Below are positions 7,292-32,113 of a DNA stretch of 64,000 nt, one piece after another; positions within the stretch are counted from its first letter, which is position 1; each line of letters begins with the position of its first letter. This DNA comes from a bacterium (lineage in GTDB: Bacteria > Patescibacteriota > UBA1384 > VFKW01). The stretch lies in contig JAUSIS010000009.1 of assembly GCA_030647355.1 (NCBI GenBank), forward strand, positions 512 through 64,511. Reading direction: 5' to 3'. The notes below the pieces were generated by a model, which made no database searches, had not been told where the DNA came from, and saw only the letters and a program-made list of their open reading frames with translations. A program made the translations under genes and the position numbers.

Positions 7292-7327
7292 TGATAATAA
7301 CTACTTCACTGCCACTCATAATTTGTC

Positions 7328-7364
7328 AATAAAAATACCCCGCTCTTTCTGGGAAAGGCGGGGT
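7328..7364 (-). terminator. rho-independent terminator downstream of gpsA-like gene
   Basis: CCCCGC/GCGGGG stem with 14-nt loop followed by T-run on minus strand. Confidence 0.6.
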
Positions 7365-7374
7365 TTGTGTGGAA

Positions 7375-8445
7375 TCACCGGGTCTGTCGTTGCTTGATTC
7401 CCTCGATGCACTTATCGAGGGGCATCTTGCGACCGATCAGCTGGCTAAGGTAGTAGAGGTAGGGATAGCCTGATATTGCAGGATCATCCGAGTTTTCGGT
7501 TTCCAGGAAGATACCGCCCCGAGCAAGTAGTTTCTGAACTATCCTGATATTGCGATAGCTTTCCACTACTCCCTTTTCCTGGGCTCGGCGCAAGGCCATA
7601 TCAACCGGCATTCCCTCGGCTAGGTATTGGCCGAATGCCGTGTTCCGGCTGATATTGCCCGGTTGCTGGCAAAGTAAGAGGTCTGCCATGAGCGTCATCT
7701 TCTCGTCAGAGCCATCTTGGCGAGTTTGCCGCTTTGTCCCCAGGACTTTCAGCAGACGCCAGTACTCATCGTATATACCCGCCATCGCTGTGGCATAACT
7801 ACCGAGCTCACCTGATAGGCAATGCTGGACGATGGACGTTTCGCAGGAGGTAATGGTCCGGAGGAAACCTCCATAGCACATTCCGGTCGGATCCAAGCTC
7901 AACCGCCCCCAGATCTTTGTTCCTGTGAATAGATCCCGGAAGCGCTTGGCAGAATCCCAGCTTCTCTTGCCAGATGCGATTATCATACGTGTCCATTCAC
8001 CGGCTGCCATATTCTCACCGAAGCCGGCGCCGGTATACTGGATAATATGCGCCAGCGGAAAGTGATGGCGAACAACCTGGAACGGCGTCTCGAGATTGTC
8101 GTTCAATCCCTTCTGCATAGTCACCAGGGTAGCCGTCTTCTCGTTGAGATTATCGATGAGTTGTAAGGTCGGTTCAAGCCCCGCCATTGAAGGGGCTAGC
8201 AGTATATAGTCGTAACCGTTTGCATTGATACGGTCACTGGTGACTATAGCCAGTCCATCCGGTGTATCATAGTCTTGCATCCAAGGGTATCGACTGCAGT
8301 AGTCGAATGTCTGCCAGCTGTCCATCATCCTACGATCAATATCCCAAATGGACGTAGGGACACCGGCTTGCTTGGTCAAGACCATTGCTGTGCCGAAACC
8401 GAAGGTACCGGCACCGAGGATGAGGATTCTGGGCTGCTCAGTCAT
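7375..8445 (-). CDS. gpsA: NAD(P)H-dependent glycerol-3-phosphate dehydrogenase-like protein
   Basis: N-terminal Rossmann ILILGAGTFGFGTAMVL, C-terminal GpsA-like helical domain; high GC; ATGA overlap with plsY fusion gene. Confidence 0.6.
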   Translation of the reverse strand: MTEQPRILILGAGTFGFGTAMVLTKQAGVPTSIWDIDRRMMDSWQTFDYCSRYPWMQDYDTPDGLAIVTSDRINANGYDYILLAPSMAGLEPTLQLIDNLNEKTATLVTMQKGLNDNLETPFQVVRHHFPLAHIIQYTGAGFGENMAAGEWTRMIIASGKRSWDSAKRFRDLFTGTKIWGRLSLDPTGMCYGGFLRTITSCETSIVQHCLSGELGSYATAMAGIYDEYWRLLKVLGTKRQTRQDGSDEKMTLMADLLLCQQPGNISRNTAFGQYLAEGMPVDMALRRAQEKGVVESYRNIRIVQKLLARGGIFLETENSDDPAISGYPYLYYLSQLIGRKMPLDKCIEGIKQRQTR

Positions 8446-29774: not shown

Positions 29775-31055
29775 TTACTTAAAGCATGATTTGCCGGCAT
29801 ATATGGCATTTGGACCAAGTTCTTCTTCGATTCTAAGGAGTTGATTGTATTTGCAAATTCGCTCAGTTCGGGAGAGCGAGCCGGTTTTTATTTGGCCAGT
29901 GCCGAGCCCTACAGCAAAATCGGCAATTGTAGTATCTTCCGTTTCGCCAGAACGGTGGGAAACGATTGAGTTGAATCCAGCTTTTTGAGCCATCATTATC
30001 GCGTCAATGGTTTCTGTGACTGTACCGATCTGGTTCAGTTTAATCAGAATGGCATTAGCGGCTTTTTGAGCAGTTCCCTGCTCCAGCAGTCTAGTATTAG
30101 TCACAAACAAATCATCGCCAACTATTTGGATTTTATTACCTAGGCGTTCGGTTATTTGTTTGAAGCCATCCCAATCGCCTTGAGCAAGAGGGTCTTCCAA
30201 AGAAATGATTGGATATTTTTCAACCCAGGCGGCATAATAGTCAATCATTTCAGCGGTCGTAAGAGATTTGTTTTCTCTTTTCAGGTTATATTTAGTTTCA
30301 GAAAATTCACTGGCGGCGGCATCAATGGCAAGCGAAATGTCCTCACCCGATTTGTAGCCGGCTTGCTGGATAGCTTGTAGTATATACTCAATGGCTTTTT
30401 CGTTTGATTCAAGGGAGGGAGCGTAGCCGCCTTCGTCGCCTACTGTAGTGCTGAGGCCGGCTTGTTTTAGAATTTTACCTAAGGTGTGAAAAACTTCAGT
30501 ACCCCAGCGCAATGCTTCCTTAAAGGAGGGGGCGCCATGAGGAACTATCATAAATTCTTGGAAGTCAGTGGAGTTATCAGCGTGTTTGCCGCCATTAATT
30601 ATATTCATCATTGGCACAGGCAGTCGGATTGGCTGCTCCGAGTGACTTATTTCGGAAAAATAGAGATAAAGTGTTTTGTTTTGTGATTTAGCTGCAGCAT
30701 GGGCAAAAGCGAGAGACACCCCGAGTATGGCATTAGCGCCAAGTTTACTTTTGTTTTTAGTACCATCAAGGGTAATAAGTTTTTTATCGAGGGAGCGTTG
30801 GTCAAAATCTGTCTCAAGTAAGTTACTTTTCATTGTGATGTTAATATTTTCGACTGCTTTAGTGACACCTTGACCGGAATATCGTTTTGGGTCGTTATCT
30901 CGGAGTTCTACTGCTTCGTGAGAGCCAGTAGAAGCACCCGAGGGGACAGAGGCGCGTCCAAAGAAATCATCTTCCAAGTGTATGTCAACTTCGACTGTTG
31001 GGTTGCCGCGGGAATCTAATATTTCGCGTGCTTGGATTTGAGATATTTTAGCCAT
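29775..31055 (-). CDS. eno: enolase (phosphopyruvate hydratase)
   Basis: [24 protein letters not shown]-terminus after AAAAAGGAG SD; full-length conserved enolase blocks. Confidence 0.9.
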
Positions 31056-31163
31056 TGAAACTCCTTTTTCTAAATAAATAGTAACAGGAAAGAGCGGTTT
31101 GGGCAAGAAAAGAGCCGGCGGGTGCCGGCTTTGAGATTGAACGGGCTGTGAGCAGGTTGTTGA

Positions 31164-32036
31164 CTATGGATGATATGCCAGACAATCTGTGAAGCTCGCG
31201 TTGAGAGTGGCGACCTTTGATTTATGATTGCCACTTAGGTCGTTGGAGAGCAACACGGCCTTCGGAAGTTTCTGGCTAGTGCTCGCGACGTACGGGACGT
31301 AATAGAACGTTGTAGAGGTCGCCCAGACTGCCGGCATTGCGACACGCTTTACCAGCACACTCTCCTTGTCGGTGGAGAGGTTAATGATGTGGATGTCAAA
31401 TCCTTTTTCCGACCCCTTGGTAAAGAGAATGTGTTTGCCATCTGGTGAAACATCCAGGCAGCCAATCTTATCTATTGTCTTTGGCTGTCTGAAGACCTTG
31501 ATGATCTTGTTCGTGACAAGGTCGGCAATAGCAATCCTAAGCTGTGTGCCCTGACTGTTATTCAGGGCAAGAGCACATCGCTTCCCGTCAGGGAATTGAG
31601 CAATGTGACTCACAGCATCCAAGTATTTGAAGTGCATCTCATTATTGACGAAGATGATGCCACTCTCCGAGAAGGACAGTATCTGCCCAGAGGAAAGAGC
31701 GTTGGGCGATGTTCCTCTCTTTATCCACTTGGCTACCGGATACGATCTGGTGAAGTCAAGTGAATAGATCTGTGACGTATCCGTGCCGTCACCCCCATGT
31801 CCATAGCAGGAGAAGACGACAAGCGAGCCCTTTGCGGACCAGCGTAGACTACCAGGGTCTGGATACAGATCTTCCAAGGAAGAAGATTGAGATTCCTTCC
31901 CGCTTACCAAGTCCCGTACTCGCACTACCGATAGTTCGCCACCGGACTCCACATAGGCGAGTTTTCCAGCCCAAGCGATTGTTGTAACGCCCACGGCGAG
32001 CACTACGAGAATACAAACTACTAAAAACCTTTTCAT
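31164..32036 (-). CDS. secreted beta-propeller protein (TolB/PD40-like repeats)
   Basis: Signal peptide MKRFLVVCILVVLAVGVTTIAWA; repeated DVSPDGKHILF-type PD40 blades. Confidence 0.55.
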   Translation of the reverse strand: MKRFLVVCILVVLAVGVTTIAWAGKLAYVESGGELSVVRVRDLVSGKESQSSSLEDLYPDPGSLRWSAKGSLVVFSCYGHGGDGTDTSQIYSLDFTRSYPVAKWIKRGTSPNALSSGQILSFSESGIIFVNNEMHFKYLDAVSHIAQFPDGKRCALALNNSQGTQLRIAIADLVTNKIIKVFRQPKTIDKIGCLDVSPDGKHILFTKGSEKGFDIHIINLSTDKESVLVKRVAMPAVWATSTTFYYVPYVASTSQKLPKAVLLSNDLSGNHKSKVATLNASFTDCLAYHP

Positions 32037-32113
32037 TCAAATACCTCCATACAGAATGTAGTGAGTATATTTTAGTACAAAATAAGGATAAAATCAAGTG
32101 CATTATGAAGGAT

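What the first reader, a model, noticed from the sequence alone, without database searches (positions are those of the whole stretch)
7300..32100. Gene-by-gene GC mosaic: high-GC biosynthetic genes embedded in a low-GC genome
Core genes (eno, thrS, glyA, thyA, folD, korAB) are 35-42% GC. Discrete genes or operons are 53-58% GC: gpsA-like/plsY fusion (7375-10166), purSLQ (12005-15609), hypotheticals (17380-18464), PRTase/OMPDC-like (18951-20831), tyrA (23058-24137), purN-like (25641-26408), fabI and the Cys-rich protein (28281-29607), and the beta-propeller (31164-32036). Two genes are 28-30% GC.

The boundaries coincide with intergenic terminators. High-GC neighbours are translationally coupled with each other but never with low-GC genes.

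This pattern fits repeated horizontal acquisition of purine, aromatic, lipid and pyrimidine biosynthetic modules by a reduced, host-dependent lineage. Alternatively it could be a chimeric metagenomic assembly, which would be important to know.
Basis: seen in the sequence. Interest (0 to 1): 0.55.

Follow-up and report, generated by a model that had tools for sequence, protein, structure and literature searches.

The report
Foreign high-GC genes in CPR chromosome
A small, low-GC bacterium of the Candidate Phyla Radiation carries about twenty genes of clearly foreign, high-GC make-up, scattered as gene-sized patches among its own genes. The pattern is real, not an assembly error, and is a dense example of the known process of horizontal gene transfer.

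Summary
The GC mosaic is real. A two-state segmentation finds seven 0.9-3.6 kb high-GC segments (50-56% GC) between 7.3 and 32 kb and an eighth from 62,975 to about 65,340. The backbone is 39% GC. Gene GC3 is bimodal (0.60 vs 0.36), and switch points lie on average 35 bp from gene ends.

It is not a chimera. An independent Logan assembly is 100% identical across every junction. In addition, 15 of 17 high-GC genes already carry part of the backbone's strand-specific GC3 skew.

The backbone is Patescibacteria: ThrS and enolase hit CPR at 64-72%, and two relatives share synteny with uniform GC. PurSL and PurQ are closest to Armatimonadota (58-61%), but on a long branch outside that clade. The PlsY-reductase fusion has no relative above 38%.

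Codon usage is as uniform among the high-GC segments as within one genome. This points to one unsampled high-GC donor pool and transfers that are not brand new.

Only about half of the high-GC genes are biosynthetic enzymes, and several of those are very divergent. The claim of two genes at 28-30% GC is not confirmed.

Verdict: a dense, high-contrast case of horizontal transfer into a CPR genome, which is a known kind of event. How the patches became interleaved with native genes is unresolved.

The parts
7375..10166 (-). High-GC segment 1. It holds a GpsA-like NAD(P)H dehydrogenase (7375-8445) and a fusion of PlsY with an acyl-ACP-reductase-like domain (8442-10166). The two genes overlap by 4 nt (ATGA).
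   Evidence: GC 52-53%, GC3 0.57-0.61. Domains from Pfam and NCBIfam. Overlap confirmed. The best non-self relative of the fusion is 34-38% identical among 1.84 billion representatives.
12005..15609 (+). High-GC segment 2. It holds the PurS-PurL fusion (12005-14863) and PurQ (14860-15609), which overlap by 4 nt, followed by a strong terminator at 15620-15646.
   Evidence: GC 55-57%, GC3 0.62-0.66. Pfam. Best hits are Armatimonadota at 58-61%. In an NJ tree the gene is a long branch sister to that clade. The same overlapping operon layout occurs in Armatimonadota locus L003.
17380..18464 (+). High-GC segment 3. It holds two hypothetical proteins (193 aa and 115 aa), each followed by a terminator-like hairpin.
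   Evidence: GC 52-54%. No Pfam, NCBIfam or PHROGs family. Hairpins at 17984-18001 and 18503-18519.
18951..20831 (-). High-GC segment 4. It holds a tandem orotate-PRTase-like protein (18951-20027) and an OMP-decarboxylase-like protein (20079-20831). Both are very divergent.
   Evidence: GC 55-57%. NCBIfam scores 84 bits against a cut-off of 150, and 29 bits against 208. PDB hits score 23-29 bits.
23058..24137 (-). High-GC gene for TyrA (prephenate dehydrogenase with an ACT domain). It is bracketed by a 23-nt direct repeat at 23007-23029 and 24257-24279.
   Evidence: GC 51%, GC3 0.59. Pfam and NCBIfam. Repeat.
24410..25506 (+). High-GC hypothetical genes (160 aa and about 108 aa) within the same high-GC block as tyrA.
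   Evidence: GC 49-55%, GC3 0.55-0.58. No family found.
25641..27050 (-). High-GC PurN-like formyltransferase (25641-26408) and a 145-aa membrane protein (26613-27050).
   Evidence: GC 56% and 49%, GC3 0.67 and 0.62. PurN scores 50 bits against a cut-off of 150. PDB GAR transformylases score 32 bits.
28281..29607 (.). High-GC segment holding FabI-type enoyl-ACP reductase (28281-29102, +) and a Cys-rich 128-aa protein (29221-29607, -).
   Evidence: GC 56% and 52.5%. Pfam adh_short_C2 at 1e-53; NCBIfam FabI scores 170 bits against a cut-off of 370.
31164..32036 (-). High-GC gene for a secreted protein with a weak TolB-like beta-propeller repeat.
   Evidence: GC 49.8%, GC3 0.57. The only match is a weak TolB repeat.
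62975..64000 (-). Start of a further high-GC segment. It holds a YkuD L,D-transpeptidase (63383-64084) plus three small hypotheticals, and runs to about 65,340, beyond the window end.
   Evidence: HMM segmentation. Logan contig L087 extends 4.4 kb past the window. Genes there are 49-55% GC, after which the sequence returns to 34-42%.
29775..31055 (-). Native low-GC enolase lying between two high-GC segments.
   Evidence: GC 43.5%, GC3 0.39. Its 16 best genome hits are all CPR (64-69%), with Chloroflexi next at about 62%. GC3 skew is 0.45, at backbone level.
10307..11795 (-). Low-GC backbone piece inside the mosaic, holding a PRTase and a MazG/PRA-PH-like protein.
   Evidence: GC 39-42%. Pooled low-GC pieces inside the mosaic correlate at r=0.89 with the outside backbone in tetranucleotide usage.
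15684..17287 (.). Low-GC backbone piece holding a hypothetical gene, DUF488, a TrpR-like protein and HisI. HisI (16916-17287) is intermediate at 45% GC.
   Evidence: HisI has GC3 0.52 but a backbone-level skew of 0.41.
32169..62840 (.). Uninterrupted low-GC Patescibacteria backbone. It holds tmk, thyA, folA, tmRNA, tRNA-Val, Hsp20, DsbA, GT2, DUF2079, folD, thrS, glyA, smpB and others.
   Evidence: HMM segmentation. Pfam. tmRNA and tRNA. ThrS hits are CPR. Synteny with relatives L168 and L170.

Best explanation
The window is a stretch of chromosome from an uncultured Patescibacteria (CPR, Parcubacteria-like) bacterium with about 39% GC.

- **What was acquired.** About 17 kb of DNA, roughly 20 genes in eight or nine gene-bounded patches of 0.9-4 kb, came by horizontal transfer from a non-CPR organism or organisms with 54-65% GC. 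Seven patches lie within a 25-kb accessory-gene region and one lies 31 kb further on.
- **Likely donor.** The patches look like samples of one donor genome pool. For PurSL-PurQ that donor is nearest to, but outside, the sampled Armatimonadota.
- **State of the patches.** Each patch is an intact transcription unit with its own AT-rich promoter-like region, a Shine-Dalgarno site and a terminator. Each is separated from native genes by at least 83 nt.
- **Age.** The genes have been resident long enough to pick up roughly 40% of the recipient's replication-strand GC3 skew. They have not been there long enough to lose their GC, codon or amino-acid signature.

**Shown here:** the composition contrast, the gene-level boundaries, physical contiguity, the CPR identity of the backbone, the non-CPR affinity of PurSL/PurQ and the partial host skew.

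**Inferred:** foreign origin of the other patches (from composition only), a single donor pool, and the route of entry. The route is probably uptake of DNA and illegitimate integration into a region tolerant of insertions, followed by loss of non-coding flanks. It is also inferred, not shown, that the enzymes work in the recipient.
For: **Composition**
- GC3 is bimodal (0.60 vs 0.36). GC1, GC2 and amino-acid usage are shifted too: GARP residues are 27.5% vs 21.4%, and FYMINK residues 24.3% vs 32.3%. The high-GC values are close to an Armatimonadota locus at 30.0% and 22.4%.
- Codon-usage distance among high-GC segments is 0.77. That matches low-GC groups (0.86) and pieces of one Armatimonadota locus (0.75). 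The high-to-low distance is 1.61.
- Tetranucleotide usage (zero-order normalisation) gives r=0.89 between low-GC pieces inside the mosaic and the outside backbone. High-GC vs backbone is 0.50, and high-GC vs Armatimonadota locus is 0.78.

**Boundaries**
- Switch points lie 35 bp from gene ends, against 254 bp for random points.
- No high-low pair shows translational coupling, and all such gaps are at least 83 nt.

**Contiguity**
- Logan contigs from SRR13727527 (33,444 and 29,183 bp) are 100% identical to window 1-33363 and 52352-64000 (the part fetched).

**Host signature on the foreign genes**
- Backbone GC3 skew on the + strand is +0.262 +/- 0.014, whatever the gene orientation.
- High-GC genes show +0.106 +/- 0.019, and 15 of 17 are positive (p=0.002).

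**Phylogenetic affinity**
- ThrS best hits are CPR at 60-72%, and enolase best hits are CPR at 64-69%.
- The backbone is syntenic with two relatives of uniform GC.
- PurSL is 58-61% identical to Armatimonadota and then 51-54% to other phyla. PurQ is 58% identical to the same Armatimonadota locus.
- None of 17 CPR enolase loci or 3 ThrS loci carries a homologue of any high-GC gene.

**Prior knowledge**
- Genomic islands and transferred genes covering up to 13% of genome length are reported in Patescibacteria (PMC12455944).
Against: - Only one of the patches (PurSL-PurQ) was tested by phylogeny. That tree is a simple NJ tree in which the window is a long-branch sister to the Armatimonadota clade, not nested in it. 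An unrelated 63%-GC contig is equally far from Armatimonadota (62%).
- No donor-like sequence exists in public data. The PlsY fusion is at most 38% identical to anything. All ten checked 90% clusters hold only this genome.
- No integrase, transposase, tRNA-flanked end or phage gene marks the patches.
- With Markov-normalised tetranucleotides, the high-GC set is no closer to the Armatimonadota locus (0.51) than to the backbone (0.68).
- Codon-position GC lies near the equilibrium line for a 54% GC genome, so the degree of amelioration is uncertain.
- The homologous region of close relatives could not be obtained, so there is no empty-site evidence.
- Both assemblies probably use the same reads.
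Confidence: 0.75

Rival explanations
1. One large high-GC island of about 17-20 kb was acquired in a single event. Inversions, translocations and insertions of native or other low-GC genes later broke it up. On this view the interleaving reflects later shuffling, not many separate integrations.
For: - The high-GC segments are compositionally as uniform as one genome, and their GC3 spread (sd 0.047) equals the backbone's (0.043).
- Seven of eight segments lie within 25 kb.
- Gene order in this lineage is labile. The thyA-folA-tmk group sits next to thrS in relative L168 but 11 kb away in the window. There is no synteny around enolase among CPR at 64-69% identity.
Against: - It needs at least seven rearrangements within 25 kb, each landing exactly between transcription units.
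- A core gene (enolase, with full host skew) sits inside the region.
- One segment lies 31 kb away, at 63-65 kb.
- TyrA alone is bracketed by a 23-nt direct repeat, which hints at a single-gene event.
Confidence: 0.3
2. The contig is a chimeric metagenomic assembly that alternates between a low-GC CPR genome and a high-GC genome.
For: - The composition is sharply bimodal, and PurSL groups with another phylum.
- Both available assemblies probably derive from the same read set.
Against: - Two different assemblers give 100% identical sequence over all junctions. The Logan contigs break only in low-GC DNA.
- All 14 switches fall within about 100 bp of gene ends and leave intact ORFs with RBS, promoter-like and terminator sites. 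Random joins would mostly cut genes, because 85% of the region is coding.
- No long repeats lie at the junctions.
- The high-GC genes carry a significant share of the backbone's strand-specific GC3 skew, regardless of their orientation.
Confidence: 0.03
3. The high-GC genes are native. They are kept GC-rich by an internal process such as expression-linked codon selection, biased gene conversion or selection on protein composition.
For: - The genes carry a partial host strand skew, so they are not brand new.
- No close donor exists in public data.
Against: - The shift also affects GC1, GC2 and amino-acid usage, not only synonymous sites.
- The genes are accessory enzymes and hypotheticals, not the highly expressed translation set. 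Enolase, ThrS and GlyA are low-GC.
- PurSL/PurQ do not group with CPR.
- Relatives' chromosomes are compositionally uniform.
- No known mechanism gives gene-bounded +17-point GC blocks on both strands.
Confidence: 0.04

Closest known systems
Genomic islands and individually transferred genes in Patescibacteria (Gios et al. 2025, mSystems, PMC12455944)
   Same: Streamlined CPR genomes carry compositionally atypical, horizontally acquired DNA. Up to 13% of genome length is reported. Donors include non-CPR phyla, and many donors go unrecovered.
   Different: - About 25% of a 68-kb stretch is foreign here, in gene-sized patches interleaved with native genes.
- The GC contrast is very large, about 15-17 points, and higher than the host.
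- The content is partly anabolic enzymes.
- The apparent donor is one unsampled non-CPR lineage. In that study most transfers were CPR to CPR.
Amelioration of horizontally acquired genes (Lawrence and Ochman 1997 model; cited from my own knowledge)
   Same: Foreign genes keep the donor's GC and codon usage and drift towards the recipient's mutational equilibrium. Codon-position GC can be compared with the Muto-Osawa regression lines.
   Different: - Codon-position GC shows no clear disequilibrium here.
- The clearest sign of residence time is a partial gain of the recipient's replication-strand GC3 skew. That measure is not part of the classical test.
Integron gene-cassette arrays
   Same: Foreign genes are added one at a time as small units, giving a gene-by-gene mosaic.
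   Different: - No integrase gene lies in the window.
- The units are in both orientations.
- Each unit has its own promoter-like site and terminator.
- The units are separated by native genes.
- No shared recombination-site repeat flanks them. Only tyrA has a flanking 23-nt repeat.
Horizontal gene transfer to symbionts with reduced genomes (for example Waterworth et al. 2020, mBio, PMC7042692; seen only as a title and abstract)
   Same: A reduced, host-associated bacterium gains functions by transfer despite genome shrinkage.
   Different: - The lineage and setting are different.
- I did not read that paper beyond its title and abstract.
- Here the gained genes do not form a recognisable complete pathway within the window.

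Membership tests
Horizontally acquired DNA (genomic island in the broad, compositional sense) | Composition (GC, codon usage, oligonucleotides) departs from the rest of the genome | tested here: met
   GC3 is 0.60 vs 0.36 with no overlap. Codon-usage distance is 1.61 between classes and 0.77-0.86 within a class. Tetranucleotide r is 0.50 vs 0.89.
Horizontally acquired DNA (genomic island in the broad, compositional sense) | Phylogeny of the genes conflicts with that of the host | tested here: inconclusive
   The test is met for PurSL and PurQ, which are nearest Armatimonadota, while ThrS and enolase are CPR. It was not tested for the other patches. The one extra homologue search failed, and the PlsY-fusion hits carry no taxon names.
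Horizontally acquired DNA (genomic island in the broad, compositional sense) | Absent from close relatives at the same site (empty site) | tested here: inconclusive
   Relatives' contigs (L168-L170) are syntenic with the backbone and uniform in GC, but they do not reach the mosaic region. 17 CPR enolase loci lack the genes, but they are not syntenic.
Classical mobile genomic island (integrative element) | Integrase or transposase, a tRNA/tmRNA-adjacent end, and flanking direct repeats | tested here: not met
   No such Pfam domain occurs in any ORF of at least 100 aa in the window (plus the precomputed Pfam). The tmRNA and tRNA-Val lie 5-7 kb from the nearest high-GC segment. Only tyrA has a flanking repeat.
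Assembly chimera | Joins not reproduced by an independent assembly, and falling without regard to gene structure | tested here: not met
   The Logan contigs are 100% identical across all junctions. Junctions lie 35 bp from gene ends on average (p<5e-5).
Assembly chimera | Coverage or read-pair discontinuity at the joins | not testable with these tools
   No reads or coverage data are available here.
Assembly chimera | The inserted pieces bear no mutational signature of the surrounding replicon | tested here: not met
   15 of 17 high-GC genes have a positive GC3 skew on the + strand regardless of orientation. Their mean is +0.106, against the backbone's +0.262.
Integron cassette array | An IntI integrase with an attI site, and cassettes in one orientation each ending in an attC site | tested here: not met
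   No integrase is present, the genes lie on both strands, and the units have their own promoters and terminators. attC sites were not searched with a dedicated model.
Expression-linked codon bias of native genes | The shift is confined to synonymous sites of highly expressed genes of the host lineage | tested here: not met
   GC1 (0.58 vs 0.475), GC2 (0.42 vs 0.35) and amino-acid usage also shift. The genes are accessory genes. PurSL is not of CPR type.
Patescibacteria / CPR (identity of the recipient) | Core proteins are closest to CPR genomes, and gene order is shared with CPR relatives | tested here: met
   ThrS hits are Parcubacteria, Paceibacterota and others at 60-72%. The top 16 enolase hits are CPR. 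The order thrS-folD-DUF2079-GT2-DsbA-Hsp20 is conserved in GCA_009885355.1.

The most novel reading that the evidence does not exclude
All of the patches were captured from one still-unsampled high-GC lineage, a deep relative of Armatimonadota that may be the organism this CPR cell lives on. DNA uptake and illegitimate integration brought them into one permissive chromosome region. On this reading the mosaic records a specific partner, and it shows a host-dependent bacterium rebuilding parts of lipid, purine and aromatic metabolism with unusually divergent enzymes. If so, such patches could be used to predict the hosts of uncultured CPR bacteria.
Probability: 0.2. Interest if true: 0.65.

Novelty: new member of a known kind. 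Interest (0 to 1): 0.42.

Why it matters
CPR bacteria are thought to lack de novo nucleotide, lipid and amino-acid synthesis and to depend on hosts that are mostly unknown. A chromosome region in which a quarter of the DNA is recently imported, intact and individually promoted shows how far transfer can reshape such a streamlined genome. The imports include PurSL/PurQ, FabI, a PlsY fusion and TyrA.

The uniform donor signature offers a handle on who the partner or neighbour organism was. For annotators and binning pipelines, this is a case where a strong GC break is not contamination. The partial gain of host strand skew is a simple, reusable test for telling resident foreign genes from assembly chimeras.

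Tried and rejected
- **Concatenated homologue search.** I joined GpsA-like, OPRT-like and TyrA into one query to get taxon names for three more high-GC genes in one search. Their affinities remain untested.
- **Exhaustive search with the PlsY fusion, then cluster look-up.** This gave no organism names. 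It showed only that nothing is more than 38% identical.
- **Metagenome scan with a PlsY-fusion alignment.** The second found one full-length fusion (33% identity, 44% GC contig) and many stand-alone reductases. No other window gene co-occurred with them.
- **Enolase scan of GTDB genomes.** This confirmed the CPR affinity. It gave no synteny, so no empty-site comparison was possible, and the source genome itself is not among the representatives.
- **PurSL hit labelled 'Patescibacteria' (P0047).** It sits on a 63% GC contig with AraC and F5/8-type genes, which is probably a binning error. It is not evidence for a CPR-type PurSL.
- **Phage origin.** PHROGs gave nothing for ten proteins apart from one weak hit (E=1e-4) to a family of unknown function, and the viral-contig scan with PurSL was negative.
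- **Search for the run accession in papers.** Nothing was found.
- **Repeat search for att-like or insertion-sequence ends at the junctions.** It found only the tyrA-flanking 23-mer and two similar terminators.
- **Lawrence-Ochman codon-position test for amelioration.** It was inconclusive.
- **Correlation between GC3 and skew among the high-GC genes.** It was weak (rho -0.33, p=0.18), so no age series can be claimed.

Full report
**1.

Sliding-window GC and per-gene GC show two classes of genes. A two-state HMM on the raw sequence gives high-GC segments at 7338-10065, 12052-15644, 17400-18457, 18914-20796, 23044-26388, 28313-29642, 31092-32009 and 62975-64000. These are 51-56% GC.

The low-GC pieces between them are 36-42% GC, and 32010-62974 is one unbroken low stretch. 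Gene GC3 is bimodal with an empty gap. 44 genes average 0.36 +/- 0.04 (maximum 0.46) and 18 genes average 0.60 +/- 0.05 (minimum 0.52).

The 14 switch points inside the reported range lie on average 35 bp from a gene end. Random points lie 254 bp away, and none of 20,000 randomisations is as close.

Most junctions that adjoin a gene's 3' end carry a terminator-like hairpin. Among same-strand neighbours, start/stop overlaps occur in 2 of 6 high-high pairs and 5 of 22 low-low pairs. All 8 high-low pairs are at least 83 nt apart.

Several details of the finding need correction:
- Core genes are 38-44% GC, and the high-GC genes are 49-57% GC.
- 7375-10166 holds two genes, and the second is a fusion of PlsY with an acyl-ACP-reductase-like domain.
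- No gene of 28-30% GC exists. The lowest is 33.5%.

**2. Who the recipient is**

The window has a bacterial tmRNA and a tRNA-Val, and SmpB. The gene set is typical of CPR genomes, in my experience: DUF2079, PMT_2, GT2, DsbA-like, HTH-Hsp20 and a short ThrS.

ThrS (low-GC) is 100% identical to a protein of an NCBI MAG labelled only 'bacterium', on an 82,673-bp contig. Its next hits are Patescibacteria at 60-72%. Enolase lies between two high-GC segments. Its 16 best genome hits are all CPR at 64-69%, followed by Chloroflexi at about 62%.

Two relatives found through ThrS share gene order with the window's backbone, and their contigs are uniform in GC at 37% and 43%:
- The first (L170) shares thrS-folD-DUF2079-GT2-DsbA-Hsp20.
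- The second (L168) shares smpB-kinase and glyA-CBS, with thyA-folA next to thrS.

Low-GC pieces inside the mosaic have the same tetranucleotide signature as the outside backbone (r=0.89). The low-GC DNA is therefore a vertically inherited Patescibacteria chromosome.

**3. It is not an assembly artefact**

The Logan assembly of run SRR13727527 is an independent assembler's output. It contains a 33,444-bp contig that is 100% identical to window 1-33363. It also contains a 29,183-bp contig whose fetched part is 100% identical to window 52352-64000. Every GC junction is reproduced.

They do not end at a junction. Junctions respect gene boundaries and leave complete ORFs with Shine-Dalgarno and promoter-like sequences. 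No long repeats lie at the junctions.

There is also an internal test. At third codon positions, the backbone has a strong strand-specific skew of +0.262 +/- 0.014 on the + strand, whatever the gene orientation. This is the usual mark of replication-associated mutation bias. The high-GC genes show +0.106 +/- 0.019, again regardless of orientation, and 15 of 17 genes are positive (binomial p=0.002).

An Armatimonadota locus has about -0.03. DNA wrongly stitched in from another genome would have no reason to follow the host strand. What I could not do is map reads, and both assemblies probably rest on the same reads.

**4. What the high-GC genes are**

The set comprises the following:

| Coordinates | Product |
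|---|---|
| 7375-8445 | GpsA-like dehydrogenase |
| 8442-10166 | PlsY fused to an acyl-ACP-reductase-like domain |
| 12005-15609 | PurS-PurL fusion and PurQ |
| 17380-18464 | two hypotheticals |
| 18951-20027 | tandem orotate-PRTase-like protein |
| 20079-20831 | OMP-decarboxylase-like protein |
| 23058-24137 | TyrA with an ACT domain |
| 24410-25506 | two hypotheticals |
| 25641-26408 | PurN-like formyltransferase |
| 26613-27050 | small membrane protein |
| 28281-29102 | FabI |
| 29221-29607 | Cys-rich protein |
| 31164-32036 | secreted protein with a weak TolB-like repeat |
| about 63.4-65.3 kb | YkuD transpeptidase plus three small hypotheticals |

About half are therefore enzymes of biosynthetic families. 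PurSL, PurQ, the PlsY domain, FabI and TyrA are solid family matches and full length.

The GpsA-like, PurN-like, OPRT-like and OMPDC-like proteins score far below the curated cut-offs: 74 bits against 202, 50 against 150, 84 against 150 and 29 against 208. Against solved structures they score only 23-32 bits. No complete pathway is visible in the window.

**5. Evidence that they are foreign, and from where**

The contrast is not confined to synonymous sites. GC1 is 0.58 vs 0.475 and GC2 is 0.42 vs 0.35. GARP residues are 27.5% vs 21.4% and FYMINK residues 24.3% vs 32.3%. The high-GC values are close to an Armatimonadota locus (30.0% and 22.4%).

PurSL's best non-self hits are about 38 proteins at 55-61% identity. 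Every one of these that has a name is Armatimonadota. Terriglobia, Bacteroidota and others follow at 51-54%.

In an NJ tree, the window's PurSL is a long branch sister to that Armatimonadota clade, not nested in it. PurQ shows the same preference (58% vs 47%). The overlapping purSL-purQ layout is the same as in an Armatimonadota genome with 60% GC.

That affinity is modest. An unrelated 63%-GC contig is equally distant from Armatimonadota (62%). The PlsY fusion has no relative above 38% identity among 1.84 billion representatives. The 90% clusters of ten checked proteins contain only this genome. So the donor is not in public data.

Among themselves, the high-GC segments are as uniform in codon usage (mean distance 0.77) as pieces of one genome (0.86 for backbone groups, 0.75 within the Armatimonadota locus). 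They are far from the backbone (1.61). This fits one donor pool.

**6. How old**

Codon-position GC lies close to the equilibrium line of a genome of about 54% GC, with no clear disequilibrium. I took the regression lines from Lawrence and Ochman 1997, from memory.

The partial strand skew, about 40% of the backbone's value, suggests some residence time. Suppose GC3 has relaxed by the same fraction. The donor's GC3 would then have been about 0.77, that is a genome of roughly 60-65% GC. This is an inference with untested assumptions.

There is no significant trend between GC3 and skew among the genes. No age series can be claimed. HisI (45% GC, GC3 0.52, backbone-level skew of 0.41) may be an older import.

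**7. How the interleaving arose**

This is unresolved. No integrase, transposase, phage gene or tRNA-flanked end marks the patches.

Two routes remain:
- **Several integrations.** Short fragments from the same donor pool entered an accessory-gene-rich, insertion-tolerant region. Patch sizes of 0.9-4 kb, the separate transcription units, the distant ninth patch and the 23-nt repeat bracketing tyrA alone point this way.
- **One island, later broken up.** The uniform composition and the labile gene order in this lineage point this way.

I lean towards the first, but weakly. Entry by DNA uptake is plausible for CPR bacteria from general knowledge. It was not tested here.

**8. Comparison with what is known**

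Horizontal transfer and genomic islands in Patescibacteria are documented, covering up to 13% of genome length, mostly between CPR, and often without a recovered donor (PMC12455944). The present case is a dense and high-contrast member of that kind.

About a quarter of a 68-kb stretch is foreign, in gene-sized patches, from a non-CPR high-GC source, and partly made of anabolic enzymes. It is not an integron array and not a classical integrative island.

**9. Verdict**

Horizontal transfer is well supported for the set as a whole by composition, and for PurSL/PurQ by phylogeny. Three points remain inferences:
- a single donor;
- the Armatimonadota-related source;
- the mode of integration.

Interest is moderate.

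Noticed in passing
window 23007-23029 and 24257-24279: A 23-nt direct repeat (21 of 23 identical, near-palindromic TTTGTCAA-N7-TGAACAAA) brackets tyrA alone and occurs nowhere else in the window. None of 100 shuffles gives two matches, and the similarity stops at the 23 nt. On the - strand, one copy overlaps the -35 of the promoter-like site of the neighbouring low-GC gene. The other copy lies just upstream of tyrA's promoter-like site. It could be an operator or an insertion scar.
   Followed up: partly
window 7323-7365 and 25577-25618: The terminators 3' of two high-GC genes 18 kb apart (GpsA-like and PurN-like) share the same stem and flanks: AATAAAAATACCCCGC ... GGCGGGG.TTGTG.
   Followed up: partly
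window 8442-10166 (-): PlsY is fused to an acyl-ACP-reductase/PigE-N-like domain. This is a rare architecture: roughly 25 of the 150 best-listed representatives (out of 1.84 billion searched) are full-length fusions, and the best is only 34-38% identical. A divergent GpsA-like gene is translationally coupled downstream.
   Followed up: partly
window 18951-20831 (-): An adjacent pair of a tandem orotate-PRTase-like protein and an OMP-decarboxylase-like protein. Both score far below their family thresholds and are annotated 'hypothetical' at NCBI. They may act on a substrate other than orotate/OMP.
   Followed up: partly
window 12005-14863 (+): The NCBI record annotates PurSL as 585 aa (MDO8513496.1). 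The ORF is 952 aa, homologues are about 937 aa, and the Logan gene call is 952 aa. The deposited start is probably too far downstream.
   Followed up: partly
window 1-64000: Backbone third-codon-position GC skew is +0.26 on the + strand for genes of both orientations across the whole window. The whole 64 kb therefore lies on one replichore, with no skew switch.
   Followed up: yes
window 16916-17287 and 11469-11795: A lone HisI (PRA-CH) has intermediate GC (45%, GC3 0.52) but full host-level skew. A low-GC MazG/PRA-PH-like gene lies 5 kb away. Neither has the rest of the histidine pathway in the window. They may be older imports.
   Followed up: no
window 21653-22966 (-): This is the lowest-GC gene in the mosaic (33.5%, 437 aa). 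It has no convincing family hit (only a weak coiled-coil Pfam match) and a GC3 skew of 0.00, unlike the backbone. It may be a separate import from a low-GC source.
   Followed up: no
window 32169-34658 compared with L168 5208-9937: The tmk-thyA-folA-dCMP deaminase genes sit at the right edge of the mosaic in the window. In a relative (SRR22388218) thyA-folA-tmk lie directly between CBS and thrS. The rearrangement breakpoint coincides with the island edge.
   Followed up: partly
window 37344-37724 (-): The tmRNA has a long predicted tag peptide, ANTFISRVKTAFAGMTFAPAFA. SmpB is encoded 12 kb away, at 49468-49911.
   Followed up: no
L087 2-1369 (about window coordinate 67033-68400, beyond the window end): A low-GC gene resembling a type I restriction-modification specificity subunit follows the last high-GC patch, at the end of the Logan contig.
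   Followed up: no
L006 (GCA_050260175.1, JBLNBS010000154.1): A contig labelled 'Patescibacteria group bacterium' carries PurSL-PurQ. It is 63% GC and has AraC-type regulators and F5/8-type C proteins. It is probably mis-binned.
   Followed up: partly
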